From assembly GCF_003790525.1 (NCBI RefSeq), contig NZ_CP033635.1: DNA of 64,000 nucleotides; one strand, written 5' to 3'. The stretch is from Escherichia coli. Lineage in GTDB: Bacteria; Pseudomonadota; Gammaproteobacteria; Enterobacterales; Enterobacteriaceae. Made by a program: the position numbers and the translations under genes. The notes under the pieces were generated by a model. The model saw nothing but the letters and a program-made list of their open reading frames with translations, made no database searches and was not told the DNA's origin. Shown one piece after another: positions 2,936 to 30,937 of the stretch; positions within the stretch are counted from its first letter, which is position 1, and each line of letters opens with the position of its first letter.

Positions 2936-3798
<863 letters not shown>

Positions 3799-12425: not shown

Positions 12426-13442
12426 ATGTCCACATTACGCCTGCTCATCTCTGACTCTTACGACCCGTGGTTTAACCTGGCGGTGGAAGAGTGTATTTTT
12501 CGCCAGATGCCCGCCACGCAGCGCGTTCTGTTTCTCTGGCGCAATGCCGACACCGTGGTGATTGGTCGCGCACAGAACCCGTGGAAAGAGTGTAATACCC
12601 GGCGGATGGAAGAAGATAACGTCCGCCTGGCGCGGCGCAGCAGCGGTGGCGGCGCGGTGTTCCACGATCTCGGTAATACCTGCTTTACCTTTATGGCTGG
12701 CAAGCCGGAGTACGATAAAACTATCTCCACGTCGATTGTGCTCAATGCTCTGAACGCGCTCGGCGTCAGCGCCGAAGCGTCCGGCCGTAACGATCTGGTG
12801 GTGAAAACCGCCGAAGGCGACCGCAAAGTCTCAGGCTCAGCCTATCGCGAAACTAAAGATCGCGGCTTCCATCATGGCACCTTGCTACTCAATGCTGACC
12901 TTAGCCGTCTGGCAAACTATCTCAACCCGGATAAAAAGAAACTGGCGGCGAAAGGCATTACGTCGGTACGTTCCCGCGTGACCAACCTCACCGAGCTGCT
13001 GCCGGGGATCACCCATGAGCAGGTTTGCGAGGCCATAACCGAGGCCTTTTTCGCCCATTATGGCGAGCGCGTGGAAGCGGAAATCATCTCCCCGGACAAA
13101 ACGCCAGACTTGCCGAACTTCGCCGAAACCTTTGCCCGTCAGAGTAGCTGGGAGTGGAACTTCGGTCAGGCTCCGGCGTTCTCGCATCTGCTGGATGAAC
13201 GCTTCACCTGGGGCGGCGTGGAACTGCATTTCGACGTTGAAAAAGGCCATATCACCCGCGCCCAGGTGTTTACCGACAGCCTCAACCCCGCACCTCTGGA
13301 AGCTCTCGCCGGGCGACTGCAAGGCTGCCTGTACCGCGCGGATATGCTGCAACAGGAGTGCGAAGCGCTGTTGGTTGACTTCCCGGAACAGGAAAAAGAG
13401 CTACGGGAGTTGTCGACGTGGATAGCGGGGGCGGTAAGGTAA
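12426..13442 (+). CDS. lplA: Lipoate-protein ligase A
   Basis: 338-aa [32 protein letters not shown]; matches LplA. Confidence 0.95.
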
Positions 13443-13473
13443 CTCACTGATTTAAATATCCAGGGAAGGAAAT

Positions 13474-13737
13474 ATGATCGATCTGGAAAACCAGGAACGG
13501 GAGATTATCAATTTAATGTTCAGCCAGGGTATATCCTGGCTAACCGCCGTGCGTATCAGGCATAAACTATCACTTGCTGAAGTAAGTAAAATGTTAGGTA
13601 TCTCCATTAATTCTCTAAAACAGATCGAAAAGACGGAACGGCTTAGTTCAAACATCAAAAGCAAAATGGCAGGAATTTATGGTTGTCCACCAGAGTTGCT
13701 GATATGCCCTTCCTGGATGACGGCTGAACATAAATGA
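13474..13737 (+). CDS. Small XRE-family helix-turn-helix protein (87 aa), not recognised as a K-12 gene
   Basis: ORF with RBS AGGGAAGGA 7 nt upstream of ATG; HTH-like segment LSLAEVSKMLGISINSLKQIEKTE. Confidence 0.5.
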   Translation: MIDLENQEREIINLMFSQGISWLTAVRIRHKLSLAEVSKMLGISINSLKQIEKTERLSSNIKSKMAGIYGCPPELLICPSWMTAEHK

Positions 13738-13835
13738 ATAGATTCGTGAATAGATACTTGAATGGATTTTATTTTCTATCCATATGAAAAATAATAGTAA
13801 ATCTATAAATCAGTTGCTATTGATGAATAGATACT

Positions 13836-13866
13836 AAAAAGCCGGAGCAGTCTCCCGCTCCGGCTT
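13836..13866 (-). terminator. Rho-independent terminator downstream of deoD (end of deo operon)
   Basis: Inverted repeat GCCGGAGC...GCTCCGGC followed on the minus strand by a T-run (plus strand AAAAA at 13836-13840). Confidence 0.65.
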
Positions 13867-13897
13867 CACAAGGCAATCGCCTTTCAGCGAAACACAA

Positions 13898-14617
13898 TTA
13901 CTCTTTATCGCCCAACAGAACGGATTCCAGTGCGATTTTGATCATGTCGTTGAAGGTGGTCTGACGCTCAGCGGCAGTGGTCTGCTCGTGAGTGCGGATG
14001 TGGTCAGACACGGTGCAGATGGTCAGGGCTTTCGCGCCAAATTCTGCAGCGACGCCGTAGATACCAGCTGCTTCCATTTCCACGCCGAGGATGCCGTATT
14101 TTTCCATCACGTCGAACATTTCGCCGTCCGGAGAGTAAAACAGGTCAGCGGAGAACAGGTTACCAACGCGAGCATCAATGCCCAGTGCTTTAGCTGCATC
14201 TACCGCGTTACGCACCATGTCAAAGTCAGCGATAGCGGCAAAGTCATGGTCTTTAAAACGGATACGGTTAACTTTGGAATCGGTGCAGGCACCCATACCG
14301 ATAACGACGTCGCGCAGTTTTACGTGCGGCAGAACAGCGCCACAGGAGCCTACGCGGATAATTTTCTTCACGCCGAAATCGGTGATCAGTTCTTTGGTGT
14401 AGATGGAGCAGGACGGGATACCCATACCGTGCCCCATTACGGAAATTTTGCGGCCTTTGTAAGTACCGGTGAAGCCCAGCATACCGCGAACGTTGTTCAC
14501 TTCACGGGCATCTTCAAGGAAAGTTTCAGCAATATACTTCGCACGCAGCGGGTCGCCTGGCATCAAAACTACGTCAGCGAAATCGCCCATTTCTGCATTA
14601 ATGTGTGGGGTAGCCAT
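13898..14617 (-). CDS. deoD: Purine nucleoside phosphorylase DeoD
   Basis: ORF track 13898..14674; conserved start [33 protein letters not shown]. Confidence 0.95.
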
Positions 14618-17271: not shown

Positions 17272-17348
17272 GGTAACCTCCCGTGGAAAAGAGACGAGGT
17301 AATCGGGGAACCGGATGAGCATCGCTGCATCATCCGGCAAATCAAGCC

Positions 17349-19936: not shown

Positions 19937-20771
19937 GATTATCCCCTTCTCCTGCGTTGACGGGCCAGGCAGTCGTCTGGCTCTGTTTTTGCAGGGCTGC
20001 AATCTGCGCTGCAAAAACTGTCACAATCCGTGGACGATGGGGCGCTGTAATGATTGCGGAGAGTGCGTGCCGCAGTGTCCGCATCAGGCGTTGCAGATTA
20101 TCGAAGGCAAAGTGGCGTGGAGCGCGGCTGTTTGCGAGCAATGTGATACCTGCCTGAAGATGTGCCCGCAACATGCCACGCCAATGGCGCAATCCATGAG
20201 CGTGGACGAGGTGCTTAACCATGTCCGCAAAGCGGTGCTGTTTATTGAAGGGATAACGGTAAGCGGCGGCGAAGCCACGACCCAGTTGCCGTTTGTGGTG
20301 GCGCTGTTTACTGCCATCAAAAACGATCCGCAACTGTGCCATCTCACCTGCCTCGTGGACAGTAACGGCATGTTGAGCGAAACCGGCTGGGAAAAATTGC
20401 TCCCGGTGTGTGACGGCGCAATGCTCGATCTCAAAGCGTGGGGGAGCGAATGTCATCAGCAATTAACCGGACGCGATAATCAGCAGATCAAGCGCAGCAT
20501 CTGTTTGCTGGCAGAGCGCGGTAAGCTGGCGGAACTGCGTTTGCTGGTAATCCCTGGCCAGGTGGATTATTTGCAACACATCGAAGAACTGGCGGCGTTA
20601 ATCAAGGGACTTGGCGATGTTCCGGTACGCCTGAACGCGTTTCATGCCCACGGCGTGTATGGCGAGGCGCAAAGCTGGCCGAGCGCCACGCCGGAGGATG
20701 TGGAACAACTGGCTGATGCGTTACGGGAGCGCGGGGTGAGTCGGTTAATATTTCCGGCGCTATATTTGTGA
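19908..20771 (+). CDS. yjjW: Radical-SAM glycyl-radical-enzyme activase YjjW
   Basis: 287-aa ORF with cysteine-rich motifs CKNCHNPW and [12 protein letters not shown]; overlaps yjjI end by 29 nt. Confidence 0.85.
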
Positions 20772-20800
20772 CATGCCGGATGTGGCCTACGAAGGGCAAA

Positions 20801-21583
20801 CTACCCACGCATGTTAAACACCTCATTCGTATTATTAAGCAACACTTCGGCAATCTCATCCGCGGGTTCCGGTCGTAACTCGCATAGCACAGCAAACACA
20901 CGGGCTGCCTGTTCAGGGCGATTAGGCTGCCCCTGAAAACCATTGAGCGGCATATCTGGTGCGTCGGTTTCCAGCAACAACGATGCCAGCGGCAGTTTTG
21001 CGATGACATCGCGGGTTTTACTGGCGCGTGGATAGGTGATAGTACCGCCTACGCCGATTTTGTAGCCCAGCTGTACAAACCGTTCAGCCTGTTGCTGGCT
21101 GCCAGAAAATCCGTGGACAACACCAGCACGCGATAAATCGTGGCGTTTAAGATGCATCGCCAGTTTGTCGTGCGTGCGCCGTGAATGCAGGATCACCGGC
21201 AGATCGTAGCGTTTCGCCAGTTTCAGTTGTTCATCAAGCAACCACTGCTGCCTCTCAAATTGCGGATCGTCACCAAAGAGATCCAGGCCGATCTCCCCCA
21301 CCGCCACCACCTTCGCCGGATGCCTTTCCAGCGCCTGCTGTAGCTGATCAAGAGACACATCGCTATGTTTTTCCAACATACCAGGATGCAAGCCCAATGC
21401 GGCATACAGCGGTTGATATTTTTCCGCTAACGCCTGCACGCGGGCAAAATTTTCCGCCTCTGTCGCCGGAACAATGATCTTGCCTACGCCAGCTTGTGCC
21501 GCACGTTGCAGGCTGGCCTCTTCATCGCCACTAAACGGCGGGAAATCAAAATGGCAGTGGGTGTCGATAAAACGGCAAATCAA
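20801..21583 (-). CDS. yjjV: TatD-family metal-dependent hydrolase YjjV
   Basis: 260-aa ORF MICRFIDTHCHFDFPPF (TatD HxH motif). Confidence 0.9.
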   Translation of the reverse strand: MICRFIDTHCHFDFPPFSGDEEASLQRAAQAGVGKIIVPATEAENFARVQALAEKYQPLYAALGLHPGMLEKHSDVSLDQLQQALERHPAKVVAVGEIGLDLFGDDPQFERQQWLLDEQLKLAKRYDLPVILHSRRTHDKLAMHLKRHDLSRAGVVHGFSGSQQQAERFVQLGYKIGVGGTITYPRASKTRDVIAKLPLASLLLETDAPDMPLNGFQGQPNRPEQAARVFAVLCELRPEPADEIAEVLLNNTNEVFNMRG

Positions 21584-27363: not shown

Positions 27364-28395
27364 ATGTCTGCATTTACCCCGGCAAGTGAAGTCTTGCTGC
27401 GTCACAGTGATGATTTCGAACAAAGCCGTATTCTGTTTGCCGGAGACTTACAGGATGACCTGCCCGCGCGTTTAGATACCGCGGCCAGCCATGCTCATAC
27501 CCAGCAATTCCACCACTGGCAGGTGTTAAGCCGCCAGATGGGGGATAACGCCCGTTTTAGTCTGGTCGCCACGGCGAATGATGTCGCAGATTGCGATACG
27601 CTGATTTACTACTGGCCGAAGAACAAACCGGAAGCCCAGTTCCAGTTGATGAATTTACTTTCTCTGCTGCCAGTGGGCACGGATATTTTTGTCGTTGGCG
27701 AGAACCGCAGCGGCGTGCGCAGCGCCGAGCAGATGCTTGCAGATTATGCACCGTTGAATAAGGTGGACAGCGCCCGTCGCTGTGGCCTCTATTTTGGTCG
27801 TCTGGAAAAACAGCCGGTATTTGATGCCAATAAATTCTGGGGCGAATATAACGTCGATGGCCTGACGGTCAAAACGCTGCCTGGCGTGTTTAGCCGCGAC
27901 GGTCTGGATGTCGGTAGCCAGTTGCTGCTCTCGACGTTAACCCCGCACACGAAAGGTAAAGTGCTGGATGTCGGCTGTGGCGCGGGCGTACTTTCGGTTG
28001 CCTTTGCGCGCCACTCACCGAAGATTCGTCTCACGTTGTGCGATGTTTCTGCGCCAGCAGTTGAAGCCAGCCGTGCAACACTTGCGGCCAACGGTATTGA
28101 AGGTGAAGTCTTTGCCAGCAACGTCTTTTCTGAGGTGAAAGGTCGTTTTGATATGATCATCTCCAACCCGCCGTTCCACGATGGGATGCAAACCAGCCTC
28201 GATGCGGCGCAAACGCTGATTCGCGGCGCGGTGCGTCATCTTAATAGCGGCGGCGAGCTGCGAATTGTAGCGAACGCCTTCCTGCCTTACCCGGACGTGC
28301 TGGATGAGACATTTGGCTTCCACGAAGTGATCGCGCAAACCGGGCGCTTCAAGGTGTATCGCGCCATTATGACCCGCCAGGCGAAGAAAGGTTGA
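27364..28395 (+). CDS. rsmC: 16S rRNA m2G1207 methyltransferase RsmC
   Basis: 343-aa ORF with SAM motif [11 protein letters not shown] and NPPFH. Confidence 0.9.
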
Positions 28396-28413
28396 GTATC
28401 CCGCCGCAAGCCT

Positions 28414-28565
<152 letters not shown>

Positions 28566-28695
28566 TGCACGTTAGTTTCCTGATGGACATTTTTCCAGCA
28601 ATTACACCTCCGGCGATAATTAACTATTGACGAAAAGCTGAAAACCACTAGAATGCGCCTCCGTGGTAGCAATTCTTTTTAAGAATTGATGGTAT

Positions 28696-28781
28696 GCGAA
28701 GGTGGCGGAATTGGTAGACGCGCTAGCTTCAGGTGTTAGTGTCCTTACGGACGTGGGGGTTCAAGTCCCCCCCTCGCACCA
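28696..28781 (+). tRNA. leuQ: tRNA-Leu (anticodon CAG), copy 1; 86 nt, one C shorter in the 3' C-run than the other copies
   Basis: GCGAAGGTGGCGGAATTGGTAGACGCGCTAGCTTCAGGTGTTAGTGTCCTTACGGACGTGGGGGTTCAAGTCCCCCCC-TCGCACCA. Confidence 0.9.
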
Positions 28782-28809
28782 AAAACCACGTTGATATTGC
28801 TCGCACTGG

Positions 28810-28896
28810 GCGAAGGTGGCGGAATTGGTAGACGCGCTAGCTTCAGGTGTTAGTGTTCTTACGGACGTGGGGGTTCAAGTCCCCCCCCTCGCACCA
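28810..28896 (+). tRNA. leuP: tRNA-Leu (anticodon CAG), copy 2; variable-arm variant GTTCTT instead of GTCCTT
   Basis: 87-nt tRNA-Leu sequence ending in CCA; one-base difference to copy 3 in the variable arm. Confidence 0.9.
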
Positions 28897-28930
28897 AACG
28901 AGGCGATATCAAAAAAAGTAAGATGACTGT

Positions 28931-29017
28931 GCGAAGGTGGCGGAATTGGTAGACGCGCTAGCTTCAGGTGTTAGTGTCCTTACGGACGTGGGGGTTCAAG
29001 TCCCCCCCCTCGCACCA
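28931..29017 (+). tRNA. leuV: tRNA-Leu (anticodon CAG), copy 3
   Basis: 87-nt canonical tRNA-Leu(CAG) sequence with encoded CCA end. Confidence 0.92.
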
Positions 29018-29055
29018 ATTATCTTTACTTCCTTTCTTGTTGCTTCCCTGTTTTA

Positions 29056-29292
29056 TCATCCCTGCTTCAAATTCATTATCATCAGCATGATGCCAGCAAT
29101 AAGCGCCAGGCACGATGGCAGCAAAACGTAATGCCGCAACTGTTTGTGATACAGCATCACCGGCGTCAATACTAATCCCATCAGAATGATAATCCGCCAT
29201 TGATCCGGCGATAAATCCGCATACATCAGCCCTGCAATCAGCAATCCCGGCAGCAACACTCCCCAGCCACTGCCCAGCGTACGTTGCAACAT
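29056..29292 (-). CDS. yjjZ: Small membrane protein YjjZ (Fur-regulated)
   Basis: ORF track 29056..29403; conserved 78-aa product starts MLQRTLGSGWGVLLPGLLIAGLMYADL. Confidence 0.75.
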   Translation of the reverse strand: MLQRTLGSGWGVLLPGLLIAGLMYADLSPDQWRIIILMGLVLTPVMLYHKQLRHYVLLPSCLALIAGIMLMIMNLKQG

Positions 29293-29310
29293 GGTTTCAT
29301 CTCTTTCATT

Positions 29311-29349
29311 GATAATGATAACTAATATCATATGATAATTTTTATCATT
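29311..29349. promoter_or_regulatory. Fur boxes in the divergent yjjZ/fhuF promoter region
   Basis: GATAATGATAACTAATATC followed by TGATAATTTTTATCATT; close match to Fur consensus GATAATGATAATCATTATC. Confidence 0.65.
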
Positions 29350-29432
29350 TGCAAGCCAGAGAAATCCCTTGCTATCGGGTAAACCTATCGCTAGGATTAG
29401 CAATCATTATCATTTAGATTACTATCGCGATT

Positions 29433-30221
29433 ATGGCCTATCGTTCCGCACCGCTCTATGAAGATGTTATCTGGCGAACGCATCTCCAGCCGCAGGATGC
29501 TGGGCTTGCACAAGCCGTACGGGCGACGATCGCCGAACATCGTGAACATTTGCTGGAGTTTATCCGCCTGGATGAACCCGCTCCGCTTAACGCCATGACG
29601 CTGGCGCAATGGTCATCACCGAATGCGCTAAGTTCTCTACTCGCGGTCTATTCCGATCATATCTATCGCAACCAACCTTTGATGATCCGCGAGAACAAAC
29701 CGCTGATCTCACTATGGGCACAATGGTATATCGGCCTGATGGTGCCACCATTAATGTTGGCGCTGCTGACGCAGGAAAAAGCATTAGATGTGTCGCCGGA
29801 ACATTTCCACGTTGAGTTTCACGAAACCGGACGCGCCGCCTGTTTCTGGGTCGATGTGTGTGAAGATAAAAACGCAACACCACATTCGCCGCAGCAGCGA
29901 ATGGAAACGTTAATCAGCCAGGCGCTGGTTCCGGTTGTGCAGGCATTAGAAGCGACGGGAGAGATCAACGGCAAACTTATCTGGAGTAATACCGGTTATT
30001 TGATCAACTGGTATCTCACTGAGATGAAGCAGCTGCTTGGCGAGGCGACGGTTGAATCGCTGCGCCATGCCCTCTTTTTTGAGAAAATGCTCACGAACGG
30101 TGAAGATAATCCACTCTGGCGTACCGTGGTACTGCGCGACGGCCTGCTGGTGCGCCGGACCTGCTGCCAGCGTTATCGCTTACCGGATGTGCAGCAATGT
30201 GGTGACTGTACGCTGAAATAG
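29433..30221 (+). CDS. fhuF: Ferric siderophore reductase FhuF (2Fe-2S)
   Basis: 262-aa ORF with C-terminal C-C-x10-C-x2-C cluster (RRTCCQRYRLPDVQQCGDCTLK). Confidence 0.95.
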   Translation: MAYRSAPLYEDVIWRTHLQPQDAGLAQAVRATIAEHREHLLEFIRLDEPAPLNAMTLAQWSSPNALSSLLAVYSDHIYRNQPLMIRENKPLISLWAQWYIGLMVPPLMLALLTQEKALDVSPEHFHVEFHETGRAACFWVDVCEDKNATPHSPQQRMETLISQALVPVVQALEATGEINGKLIWSNTGYLINWYLTEMKQLLGEATVESLRHALFFEKMLTNGEDNPLWRTVVLRDGLLVRRTCCQRYRLPDVQQCGDCTLK

Positions 30222-30259
30222 AAAAATTTGCCGGGGAAGTAAACCCGGCATTAAGCGTA

Positions 30260-30937
30260 TTAATAGGGGTGCAACACGTTACTTGCTTCGCAATGACGCA
30301 TACATAACAGAATGTCTGCGGCCTCCAACAACCCTGCATCAGAACTGACGCCCAGTTTCGACATCACATTAAATTTATGTGCACGGATCGTTTTGATATT
30401 GCGTTTAAGCTGCTCGGCAATTTGTGTCATTGAGTAGCCACGCGACATAAAGCGCAATATTTCTCTCTCCGTCGGGCTTAACGTCCGGCTTTGGTTAATG
30501 TACCACTGATTGTTCAGTCGATCGGTCGCCTGACGTACACCATTTAATGACAAAAAGAGTTCCTGATGAAAAATCTCCAGCGTTGACGCTTTACTTAATA
30601 CACCGTCCAGCGGTGATGGCGACAATGAACCAATCAGCCGAGCTTCAATATCATCATCCGCAATAACTAAACGCCGGGTACGCGGAAACTTAATCGCCAG
30701 TTCAGTCAGGCAGGATAATCCCTCTCTGCGCGCACTTCTCATGGCAGAAAAAGAAAAAATGACCGCCGCAAACGAGATCCGCGACATGGCATCCTGAAAT
30801 GACTCCTGACTGGTATAGGTATGGAGCTTATAAGGGTTACCCGCAAACTTTCTGAATAAACTCTCAATACCGATACTGCTCATGACGCATTTTTCTATGA
30901 GTGCGACATTTCTCTTCTTAATTCGGCTGTGTTCCAT
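30260..30937 (-). CDS. bglJ: LuxR-family transcriptional regulator BglJ
   Basis: 225-aa ORF with C-terminal LuxR HTH ([24 protein letters not shown]). Confidence 0.9.

What the first reader, a model, noticed from the sequence alone, without database searches (positions are those of the whole stretch)
13443..13897. Short deoD-lplA interval with a small XRE-HTH gene and a TGAATAGATACT direct repeat where K-12 has HipA-like yjjJ
Read from the sequence: only about 450 bp separate lplA and deoD. They contain an 87-aa ORF with a good RBS and an XRE-like HTH, followed by an AT-rich stretch with an exact 12-bp direct repeat TGAATAGATACT (13747-13758 and 13824-13835) plus a partial third copy at 13735-13744, then the deo terminator. 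From memory, K-12 has the 443-aa HipA-like kinase gene yjjJ here. Inference: either yjjJ was lost leaving an orphan HipB-like regulator, or this is the ancestral state and yjjJ is an insertion in K-12; the repeats could be operator sites for the HTH protein.
Basis: partly seen in the sequence, partly recalled or inferred. Interest (0 to 1): 0.4.

Follow-up and report, generated by a model that had tools for sequence, protein, structure and literature searches.

The report
Small HTH gene replacing hipH toxin
This strain carries the commoner of two alternative versions of the E. coli deoD-lplA locus: the hipH (yjjJ) toxin-kinase gene has been swapped for a small, dispensable, antitoxin-like DNA-binding gene, while hipH's old promoter and repeat boxes were left behind.

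Summary
lplA ends at 13442 and deoD at 13898. Between them lie an 87-aa XRE-type HTH ORF (13474-13737), TGAATAGAT repeats and the deoD terminator. K-12 has hipH/yjjJ at this site.

The interpretation needs correcting.
- deoD-hipH-lplA is the ancestral order. It is syntenic in Citrobacter, Salmonella, Kosakonia, Cedecea and Erwinia, so hipH is not an insertion in K-12.
- Here hipH codons 2-443 are replaced by a 286-bp, 41%-GC cassette (13443-13728) on the opposite strand. The cassette shows no similarity to hipH or to HipB.
- Its nearest relatives are the C-terminal HTH modules of phage antitoxin-like proteins encoded just downstream of RelE/ParE toxins. It lacks their N-terminal segment and has no toxin neighbour.
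- The repeats are hipH's own upstream boxes (ATCTATTCA at -37, -25, -13 and -102 from the hipH ATG). They are conserved in seven genera that lack the HTH gene, and here they are a retained, decaying relic.

Among 5,426 complete E. coli genomes, 4,057 carry this haplotype and 1,346 carry hipH. In 1,691 the HTH gene has a stop at codon 50.

This is ordinary gene-content polymorphism with some evolutionary interest. The protein's function and target are unknown.

The parts
12426..13442 (+). lplA (lipoate-protein ligase A). Its stop codon marks the left junction of the replaced segment.
   Evidence: ORF list. 97% identical to K-12 up to 13441. PGAP annotation in the identical SMS-3-5 locus.
13443..13728 (.). 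Replacement cassette of 286 bp at 41% GC. It occupies the place of hipH codons 2-443 plus the stop (1,329 bp in K-12).
   Evidence: Homology to K-12 stops at 13441 and resumes at 13729. No similarity to hipH from seven genera. GC is 0.41, against 0.54 for hipH and 0.58 for lplA.
13463..13470 (+). Shine-Dalgarno-like GGGAAGGA, 3 nt upstream of the ATG.
   Evidence: Read from the sequence. No promoter or terminator separates lplA from the ORF; the one promoter-like match overlaps the start codon.
13474..13737 (+). 87-aa XRE-family HTH gene (identical locus in SMS-3-5 is annotated WP_000566145.1). It resembles an antitoxin DNA-binding module that has no toxin and no N-terminal toxin-binding segment.
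   Evidence: HTH_3 above cut-off. AlphaFold2 pLDDT 89 with XRE-like fold matches. dN/dS 0.15-0.37. A syntenic 43%-identical 87-aa ortholog exists. 37% identity to the C-terminal part of the phage Pmp14 regulator encoded next to a ParE/RelE toxin.
13621..13623 (+). Codon 50, CAG and intact in this window. It is TAG in 1,691 of 5,426 complete E. coli genomes.
13729..13731 (-). Former hipH start codon (ATG on the minus strand). It is now read as His86 of the HTH ORF, and it heads a residual 27-codon minus-strand ORF (13731-13648).
   Evidence: Alignment to K-12. ORF list.
13735..13767 (-). Three tandem hipH boxes with a 12-bp period (ATCTATTCA on the hipH strand): 13735-13743, 13747-13755 and 13759-13767 (the last is ATCCATTCA). 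The TGA of the first box is the stop codon of the HTH ORF.
   Evidence: Same positions (-13, -25, -37 from the hipH ATG) in K-12, Citrobacter, Salmonella, L016, Erwinia, Kosakonia and Cedecea.
13761..13790 (-). Relic hipH promoter, TTTTCA (13790-13785) - 18 nt - TCCATT (13766-13761). The -10 element overlaps the -37 box.
   Evidence: K-12 has TTTTCA-18-TCTATT here, reported as an RpoD-holoenzyme SELEX promoter with H-NS binding (PMC3946193). The -35 hexamer is conserved in the alignment. It did not pass the generic promoter scan.
13768..13823 (.). AT-rich spacer between the proximal and distal boxes. About half its bases differ from K-12.
   Evidence: It does not align between genera either.
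13824..13832 (-). Distal hipH box, at -102 from the former ATG.
13839..13866 (-). deoD intrinsic terminator hairpin followed by a U-run. It can also form on the plus strand, but without a U-tract.
   Evidence: Fold of -26 kcal/mol, z = -4.2 on the minus strand; -19.5 kcal/mol on the plus strand. Inverted repeat I7.
13898..14617 (-). deoD (purine nucleoside phosphorylase).

Best explanation
The interval is the majority, hipH-less haplotype of a two-state locus.

How it arose. The ancestral arrangement in Enterobacterales is deoD - hipH - lplA. hipH sits behind a promoter bracketed by four ATCTATTCA boxes: three tandem at -37, -25 and -13, and one at about -102. In this haplotype the hipH coding sequence, from codon 2 to the stop, was exchanged for a 286-bp AT-rich cassette. 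The cassette carries one small gene on the opposite strand, co-oriented with lplA.

What the gene encodes. The product is an 87-aa XRE/Cro-type DNA-binding domain with one extra N-terminal helix. Its only specific relatives outside the orthologs are the C-terminal DNA-binding modules of roughly 104-146-aa antitoxin-like proteins. In the phages examined these are encoded immediately downstream of RelE/ParE-superfamily toxins. The 87-aa protein lacks their N-terminal extension (inferred to be toxin-binding) and has no toxin gene beside it. I therefore read it as an orphan, antitoxin-derived HTH protein of mobile-element origin.

Inferred expression and function. These steps are not shown.
- The gene is probably expressed by read-through from ytjB-lplA. 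The gap is 31 bp, there is an SD-like sequence, and there is no intervening promoter or terminator.
- Translation ends at the TGA supplied by the first hipH box.
- If the protein is active, it most likely works as a small dimeric repressor with an unknown target.

Status of the remaining elements. The hipH start codon, boxes and -35/-10 elements downstream of the gene are leftovers of hipH regulation. The boxes are most plausibly operators for HipH's own N-terminal HTH; this too is inferred. The HTH gene has been a real coding gene, but it is dispensable and is being lost in a large part of the species.
For: Junctions and lack of relation to hipH
- Homology to K-12 ends exactly at the lplA stop and resumes at the hipH ATG.
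- The cassette is unrelated to hipH at the DNA and translated levels.

hipH is ancestral at this site
- It is syntenic in Citrobacter freundii, Salmonella enterica, an unnamed lineage with 69%-identical HipH, Erwinia tasmaniensis, Kosakonia cowanii and Cedecea davisae.

The boxes belong to hipH
- They occur at identical positions in all seven hipH loci, while the rest of the intergenic region does not align.
- The K-12 promoter TTTTCA-18-TCTATT overlaps the -37 box (PMC3946193).

Population frequencies
- The HTH haplotype covers at least 80% of the query in 4,057 of 5,426 genomes.
- hipH is present in 1,346 of 5,426 genomes.

The ORF is a real gene
- A syntenic 87-codon ortholog (43% identity, dS saturated) lies downstream of an lplA whose product is 90% identical.
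- dN/dS is about 0.15-0.37.
- The AlphaFold2 model is confident, with pLDDT 89.

The gene is dispensable
- Codon 50 is TAG in 1,691 genomes.
- Frameshifted alleles also exist.

Antitoxin-like ancestry
- 37% identity over residues 3-77 to the regulator of phage Pmp14, with pairwise E = 5e-14 and tblastn E = 2e-6. The match includes the helix that precedes the HTH.
- That phage gene, and the one in phage PPyecE_EH1910, directly follow ParE_toxin-family genes.
- Relative P0100 lies in a HigB_toxin cluster.
- An exhaustive HMMER search of 1.84 billion representative proteins found nothing closer.

Foreign composition
- GC is 0.41, against 0.52-0.58 for the neighbouring genes.
Against: - No expression data were available. 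Read-through from lplA and any repressor activity are inferred only.
- The 42-bp proximal box block is 41/42 identical between this haplotype and K-12, although the adjacent spacer is about 50% different. The most divergent Escherichia HTH haplotype (L006) keeps its remaining box cores intact despite roughly 20% spacer divergence. This could mean the boxes still function here.
- The antitoxin ancestry rests on 29-42% identity and on a handful of gene neighbourhoods. Relative P0084 has no recognisable toxin next to it.
- The organism carrying the distant ortholog is unidentified. Whether there was one ancient replacement or a lateral transfer of the cassette is therefore open.
- E. albertii and E. 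fergusonii were not resolved.
Confidence: 0.7

Rival explanations
1. The 87-aa protein uses the retained ATCTATTCA boxes as its operators. It would repress the orphaned hipH promoter, which would otherwise transcribe antisense through the HTH gene and lplA. The boxes would then be functional in this haplotype.
For: - The boxes and the -35 hexamer are retained almost unchanged relative to K-12, while the spacer between them is about 50% different.
- The divergent haplotype L006 keeps intact box cores.
- In K-12, hipH and lplA are reported as a convergent excludon (PMC12288877), so antisense transcription into lplA is a real issue at this locus.
- The gene lies directly next to the boxes.
Against: - The boxes predate the HTH gene. 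They are perfectly conserved in genera that have hipH and no HTH gene.
- HipH's HTH and this protein are unrelated.
- HTH haplotypes show loss of a 12-bp unit (L005, L006, L010), a 77-bp deletion that removes two boxes (L011), and core substitutions (L025-L028).
- The distant ortholog L004 keeps only one degenerate box.
- 31% of genomes carry a nonsense allele of the gene but still keep the boxes.
- The boxes are direct repeats. From general knowledge, XRE dimers usually bind inverted repeats.
Confidence: 0.12
2. The ORF in this strain is an inert remnant. It is intact by chance, is poorly expressed or not expressed (AT-rich, probably H-NS-silenced), and has no cellular role. The whole interval is decaying DNA left by an old rearrangement.
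For: - A nonsense allele occurs in 1,691 genomes, and frameshifts occur in others.
- The family is essentially confined to Escherichia.
- The gene has no promoter of its own.
- H-NS binding is reported for this spacer in K-12 (PMC3946193).
- Some pairwise dN/dS values reach 0.5-0.8.
Against: - An 87-codon frame is preserved against saturated synonymous divergence in L004, with dN/dS 0.14-0.28.
- dN/dS is 0.15-0.26 between this window's allele and the other intact alleles, apart from 0.37 against L006.
- The fold prediction is confident.
- At least 2,035 genomes keep the CAG allele.
Confidence: 0.15
3. The ORF is a rearranged or inverted 5' fragment of hipH encoding its N-terminal HTH domain. 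Alternatively, hipH is a K-12-lineage insertion into an ancestral HTH-only locus.
For: The geometry would fit an inversion: the ORF ends at the old hipH ATG, and both proteins contain an HTH.
Against: - There is no protein, DNA or translated similarity to hipH of seven genera.
- The HipH N-terminus appears to be a winged-helix type and gave no Pfam HTH_3 hit. The ORF, by contrast, is HTH_3.
- hipH is syntenic next to deoD from Erwinia to Escherichia.
Confidence: 0.02

Closest known systems
K-12 deoD-hipH(yjjJ)-lplA locus (HipH, a HipA-family Ser/Thr kinase toxin with an N-terminal HTH)
   Same: Same chromosomal site and same flanking genes. The deoD terminator, the hipH start codon, the four ATCTATTCA boxes and the -35 hexamer are all retained.
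   Different: The 1.33-kb hipH coding sequence is absent. An unrelated 264-bp gene lies on the other strand in its place.
Phage-borne antitoxin-like HTH proteins encoded downstream of RelE/ParE-superfamily toxins (Pasteurella phage Pmp14 XYO02381.1; phage PPyecE_EH1910 BCI50128.1)
   Same: 30-37% identity across residues 3-77. The match covers the helix before the HTH and the conserved motifs S-x-L-x-A-x-R, IEK and Y-x-C-x-x-E/Q-L.
   Different: The E. coli protein lacks their N-terminal extension of roughly 45-50 residues, which gives a weak RelB-like match. It has no toxin gene upstream and carries a short unique C-terminal tail.
HipB antitoxin of hipBA
   Same: Both are small XRE-family HTH proteins of about 88 aa associated with a Hip-kinase locus.
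   Different: The protein does not match the HipB NCBIfam model. HipB is absent from the top 50 structural hits. There is no adjacent kinase and no TATCC-N8-GGATA operator (the operator consensus is from memory).
Generic small XRE repressors (C.BclI and C.AhdI controller proteins, CylR2, SinR N-domain, 434 and P22 c2 repressors)
   Same: Best Foldseek and PDB sequence matches, sharing the five-helix HTH core.
   Different: The matches are only fold-level or weak sequence matches (Foldseek E >= 0.016; CylR2 E = 6.8e-5). The genomic context is unrelated.

Membership tests
XRE / Cro-C1 HTH (Pfam HTH_3, PF01381) | Sequence match above the Pfam gathering score | tested here: met
   25.2 bits against a cut-off of 23, E = 1.7e-5, residues 25-76.
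XRE / Cro-C1 HTH (Pfam HTH_3, PF01381) | Five-helix bundle with the HTH in helices 2-3 | tested here: met
   AlphaFold2 pLDDT 89 with helices at 22-29, 34-41, 45-54, 59-69 and 73-76, plus an extra helix at 4-18. Foldseek matches are C.BclI, CylR2, SinR and the 434 and P22 repressors, with TM-score 0.5-0.6.
XRE / Cro-C1 HTH (Pfam HTH_3, PF01381) | Sequence-specific DNA binding | not testable with these tools
   Requires EMSA or ChIP.
HipB antitoxin | Match to the HipB equivalog model (NCBIfam NF007271) | tested here: not met
   No hit at E <= 0.01.
HipB antitoxin | Encoded in an operon with a HipA-family kinase | tested here: not met
   The neighbours are lplA and deoD. The hipH and HTH haplotypes occupy the same site as alternatives.
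HipH/YjjJ (as a gene fragment) | Sequence similarity to HipH on the hipH strand | tested here: not met
   Best BLASTP E = 0.2. No blastn hit at E <= 1, and only chance-level tblastx hits for the L004 cassette, against seven hipH genes. The ORF is on the opposite strand.
Type II antitoxin of toxin-first RelE/ParE (HigA-like) modules | Homology to the DNA-binding module of family members | tested here: met
   Pmp14 regulator 37% identity, E = 5e-14 pairwise and 2e-6 by tblastn. P0084 E = 7.7e-7 against 1.84 billion proteins. Alignment.
Type II antitoxin of toxin-first RelE/ParE (HigA-like) modules | N-terminal toxin-neutralising segment | tested here: not met
   The 87-aa protein starts where the relatives' linker ends, so their roughly 45-50 N-terminal residues are absent.
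Type II antitoxin of toxin-first RelE/ParE (HigA-like) modules | Adjacent cognate toxin gene | tested here: not met
   Only 31 bp separate the lplA stop from the ATG. No other ORF in the interval looks credible.
Known structured RNA (Rfam) | Match to any Rfam covariance model in 13200-14100 | tested here: not met
   No match at E <= 1.

The most novel reading that the evidence does not exclude
A foreign, antitoxin-derived XRE domain has taken over an operator that is conserved across Enterobacterales. In this reading the 87-aa protein binds the retained ATCTATTCA boxes and silences the orphaned hipH promoter, protecting lplA from antisense transcription. The hipH/HTH dimorphism would then be an old polymorphism, possibly shared across species and maintained by selection, rather than a simple gene loss.
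Probability: 0.1. Interest if true: 0.55.

Novelty: new member of a known kind. Interest (0 to 1): 0.3.

Why it matters
- HipH/YjjJ is studied in K-12 and UPEC as a persistence-related toxin: a kinase in PMC9948734, and a c-di-GMP-controlled DNase in PMC11452175. This analysis shows it is absent from about three quarters of complete E. coli genomes, including the O157:H7 and O55:H7 strains sampled here. In those genomes it is replaced at exactly the same site by a small orphan HTH gene, which is itself inactivated in about 31% of all genomes. Conclusions about hipH therefore cannot be generalised across the species.
- As a by-product, the comparison reveals a strictly conserved 3+1 arrangement of ATCTATTCA boxes around the hipH promoter, from Escherichia to Erwinia. 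I did not find this described in the searched literature. It gives a concrete, testable operator for the long-suspected autoregulation by HipH's HTH domain.
- The HTH gene itself is a minor, dispensable, lineage-restricted regulator of unknown function.

Tried and rejected
1. Inverted hipH 5' fragment. The geometry fits, but there is no sequence similarity at any level, and HipH's N-terminus is a different HTH type. Rejected.
2. Ancient balanced haplotypes revealed by flank divergence. Divergence between K-12 and the window is 2.65% overall, 3.6-3.8% at the lplA 3' end and 2.6% in deoD. There is no clear peak beyond the interval itself. Inconclusive, and not used.
3. Excess conservation of the boxes within HTH haplotypes. 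One pair (window against L006) looked suggestive. With 12 haplotypes, however, the boxes show substitutions, unit loss and a 77-bp deletion. By my rough hand count, not computed by a tool, box cores vary at about 4 of 36 sites and the spacer at about 16 of 56 sites, which I judge not clearly different.
4. Scan of GTDB species representatives for the HTH gene. It found only two Escherichia loci, so it did not resolve E. albertii or E. fergusonii.
5. Identifying the organism of the distant ortholog through its LplA. No named protein exceeded 90% identity.
6. Other negative checks: Rfam found nothing. The interval has no HipB-type operator motif. A literature search for the box sequence returned only primers and shRNAs.
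7. Antisense ORFs in the cassette (70 aa at 13452-13664; 27 aa at 13648-13731). Their partial conservation in L004 mirrors the conserved sense frame, so they are treated as by-products.

Full report
**1. Observation**

- lplA is 12426-13442 (+) and deoD is 13898-14617 (-), leaving a 455-bp interval.
- An 87-codon ORF at 13474-13737 (+) is preceded by GGGAAGGA. It reaches the Pfam HTH_3 gathering score (25.2 bits against 23).
- TGAATAGATACT is exact at 13747-13758 and 13824-13835. A 10-nt partial copy lies at 13735-13744. The true layout is three tandem 12-bp units plus one distal copy 77 bp away.
- The three exact TGAATAGAT matches are the only ones in the 64-kb window.
- The deoD terminator hairpin at 13839-13866 folds at -26 kcal/mol, z = -4.2.
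- No Rfam family matches the region.

**2. Comparison with K-12**

K-12 MG1655 has deoD, hipH (yjjJ, 443 aa, same strand as deoD) and lplA (convergent, with the two stop codons abutting).
- Homology between the window and K-12 runs through lplA to its stop codon. It resumes exactly at the hipH start codon, which is the CAT at window 13729-13731.
- hipH codons 2-443 plus the stop (1,329 bp) are therefore replaced by 286 bp (13443-13728).
- The ORF lies on the opposite strand to hipH. It shows no similarity to HipH by BLASTP, and none to hipH genes of seven genera by blastn or tblastx.
- The HipH N-terminus (MSELTDLLLQGPRSAPELRQRLAISQATFSRLV...GKARATRYAL) reads as a winged-helix type and gave no Pfam HTH_3 hit.
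- The ORF is therefore neither a hipH fragment nor an inverted piece of it.

**3. Population picture**

These counts come from 5,426 complete E. coli genomes.
- 4,057 contain this interval at 80% coverage or more, annotated by PGAP as a 'helix-turn-helix domain-containing protein'.
- 1,346 contain hipH.
- The two states occupy the same site, and their counts sum to 5,403.
- Strains seen with each state:
  - hipH: K-12 derivatives and LF82.
  - HTH gene: O157:H7 and O55:H7 strains and SMS-3-5 (whose interval is 100% identical to the window).
- Two large HTH allele classes (95.2% and 94.9% identity to the window) carry CAG>TAG at codon 50 and are flagged 'internal stop'.
- A 41-mer centred on that codon finds the TAG form in 1,691 genomes and the CAG form in 2,035.
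- Frameshifted alleles also occur.
- One genome (WB61) has a third state, with hipH truncated to its 5' end.

**4. Which state is ancestral**

- HipH orthologs at 49-70% identity lie immediately downstream of deoD in every other lineage examined: Citrobacter freundii, Salmonella enterica, an unnamed lineage with 69%-identical HipH, Kosakonia cowanii, Cedecea davisae and Erwinia tasmaniensis. Except in Erwinia, they lie upstream of lplA.
- None of these loci contains the small HTH gene.
- The K-12 arrangement is therefore ancestral, and the window's arrangement is derived.

**5. The repeats**

- In all seven hipH loci the intergenic region does not align, except for ATCTATTCA boxes at about -37, -25 and -13 from the hipH ATG (12-bp period) and one box at about -101 or -102.
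- The -25, -13 and distal boxes are exact in nearly every genus; the single exception is one mismatch in the Citrobacter -13 box. The -37 box varies more.
- The window has the same four boxes at the same distances from the retained ATG.
- In K-12, an RpoD-holoenzyme SELEX study placed a constitutive promoter, TTTTCA-18-TCTATT, in this spacer together with H-NS binding (PMC3946193). Its -10 element lies inside the -37 box.
- The window keeps TTTTCA-18-TCCATT on the minus strand (13790-13761). The roughly 50 bp between the proximal and distal boxes differ from K-12 at about half the positions.
- The boxes are therefore the conserved cis-elements of hipH. They are most plausibly operators for HipH's own HTH domain. 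This is an inference: the literature reports only that the HTH is needed for toxicity and that c-di-GMP acts at the hipH promoter (PMC11452175; PMC8262856).
- The boxes predate the HTH gene and are not specific to it.
- Within HTH haplotypes the boxes show several lesions:
  - loss of one 12-bp unit in L005, L006 and L010;
  - a 77-bp deletion exactly between the two identical 12-mers in TUM18780 (L011);
  - core substitutions in L025-L028.
- In the distant ortholog locus only one degenerate box survives.
- This pattern fits a slowly decaying relic. The near-identity of the proximal box block to K-12 nevertheless leaves some room for continued function.

**6. The 87-aa gene**

- *Restricted family.* A word-indexed search of 5.8 billion proteins and an exhaustive HMMER search of 1.84 billion representatives found only Escherichia/Shigella sequences (E. 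coli, E. marmotae, Shigella, cryptic Escherichia) plus one 43%-identical 87-aa protein. A scan of GTDB species representatives added only two Escherichia loci.
- *The distant homolog is syntenic.* It lies just downstream of an lplA whose product is 90% identical to the window's, and upstream of deoD. Its stop codon, like the window's, is the TGA of a box-like sequence next to a retained CAT. This points to a shared junction. The host organism could not be named, since no LplA exceeded 90% identity.
- *Coding signal.* dN/dS is 0.15-0.37 between the window and other Escherichia alleles. Against the distant ortholog it is 0.14-0.28 with saturated dS. The ORF has therefore been a genuine coding gene.
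- *Fold.* AlphaFold2 gives a confident model (pLDDT 89) with the five XRE helices plus an extra N-terminal helix. Structural and PDB sequence neighbours are generic small XRE repressors, and HipB is not among the top 50.
- *Not HipB.* The HipB NCBIfam model is not matched, and no HipB-type operator is present in the interval.

**7. Origin of the cassette**

- The only specific relatives outside the orthologs are the C-terminal two-thirds of 104-146-aa proteins. The homology starts at the helix preceding the HTH.
- In Pasteurella phage Pmp14 (37% identity, E = 5e-14 pairwise) and phage PPyecE_EH1910, these genes directly follow 86-aa ParE_toxin-family genes. Their N-termini give a weak RelB-like match.
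- Another relative lies in a HigB_toxin cluster. One relative has no obvious toxin beside it.
- The E. coli protein lacks that N-terminal extension and has no toxin partner. Only 31 bp separate it from lplA, and no other ORF in the interval looks credible.
- Together with the low GC of the cassette (0.41, against 0.52-0.58 for the neighbours), this supports an orphan, antitoxin-derived HTH of mobile-element origin.

**8. Mechanism: shown versus inferred**

- *Shown:* the junctions, the ancestry of hipH at this site, the conservation of the boxes, the population frequencies, the coding signal and fold, and the relation to toxin-linked HTH proteins.
- *Inferred:*
  - Expression by read-through from ytjB-lplA. 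There is no promoter or terminator in the 31-bp gap, and the only promoter-like match overlaps the start codon.
  - Action as a small repressor with an unknown target.
  - The boxes as HipH operators.
  - Possible antisense transcription from the relic hipH promoter. In K-12, hipH and lplA are listed as a convergent excludon (PMC12288877).

**9. Verdict**

- The locus is a clean example of allelic replacement of a toxin gene by an unrelated orphan antitoxin-like gene, with the toxin's regulatory region left behind.
- It is not a new kind of system, and the gene is already annotated in thousands of genomes.
- I did not find the dimorphism or the hipH box architecture described in the literature searched. 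Both are directly testable.

Noticed in passing
K-12 L001 3168-3269 and equivalents: L013 3900-4000, L015 3899-4000, L018 2399-2500, L019 2401-2500, L020 2400-2500: A strictly conserved 3+1 arrangement of ATCTATTCA boxes (-37, -25, -13 and about -102) surrounds the hipH promoter, from Escherichia to Erwinia, in otherwise unalignable intergenic DNA. It is a likely hipH operator and was not found in the searched literature.
   Followed up: partly
L003 (E. coli WB61, NZ_CP020025.1) 3001-3192: A third allele at this site. hipH is truncated to its first 140-190 bp, annotated as a partial 'transcriptional regulator', and runs straight into lplA. This is an independent deletion of hipH.
   Followed up: partly
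L011 (E. coli TUM18780), corresponding to window 13747-13823: A 77-bp deletion lies exactly between the two identical TGAATAGATACT copies. Separately, L005, L006 and L010 lack one 12-bp tandem unit. The repeats therefore mediate small deletions and copy-number changes.
   Followed up: yes
window 13513-13525 and 13722-13734: A 13-nt inverted repeat (TTAATGTTCAGCC / GGCTGAACATAAA, 12 of 13 complementary) links codons 14-18 of the HTH ORF to the old hipH start region. It is not conserved in L006 or L004 and is probably chance.
   Followed up: partly
window 13474-13737 compared with L025-L028: The window's allele (100% identical to SMS-3-5; only 124 genomes at 99% or more) is closer to the allele named Escherichia marmotae by a source (P0002, 98% aa identity) than to the common E. 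coli allele. This hints at exchange between Escherichia lineages at this locus.
   Followed up: no
window 20001-21500 and 28001-30500: Divergence from K-12 is elevated here: 5-10% at about 20.0-21.5 kb (corresponding to K-12 yjjW/yjjV) and 4-7% around the leuQPV tRNA / yjjZ / fhuF region. The average across the aligned window is 2.65%.
   Followed up: no
window 3457-3466 and 17299-17348: Intergenic length differences from K-12. K-12 has about 150 extra bp in the trpR-yjjX spacer and about 50 extra bp in the deoC-deoA spacer. These may reflect presence or absence of REP-type elements.
   Followed up: no
L004 1135-1330: In the distant ortholog locus, the space between the HTH gene and deoD holds a terminator and GC-rich palindromic (REP-like) sequence instead of the hipH promoter region.
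   Followed up: no
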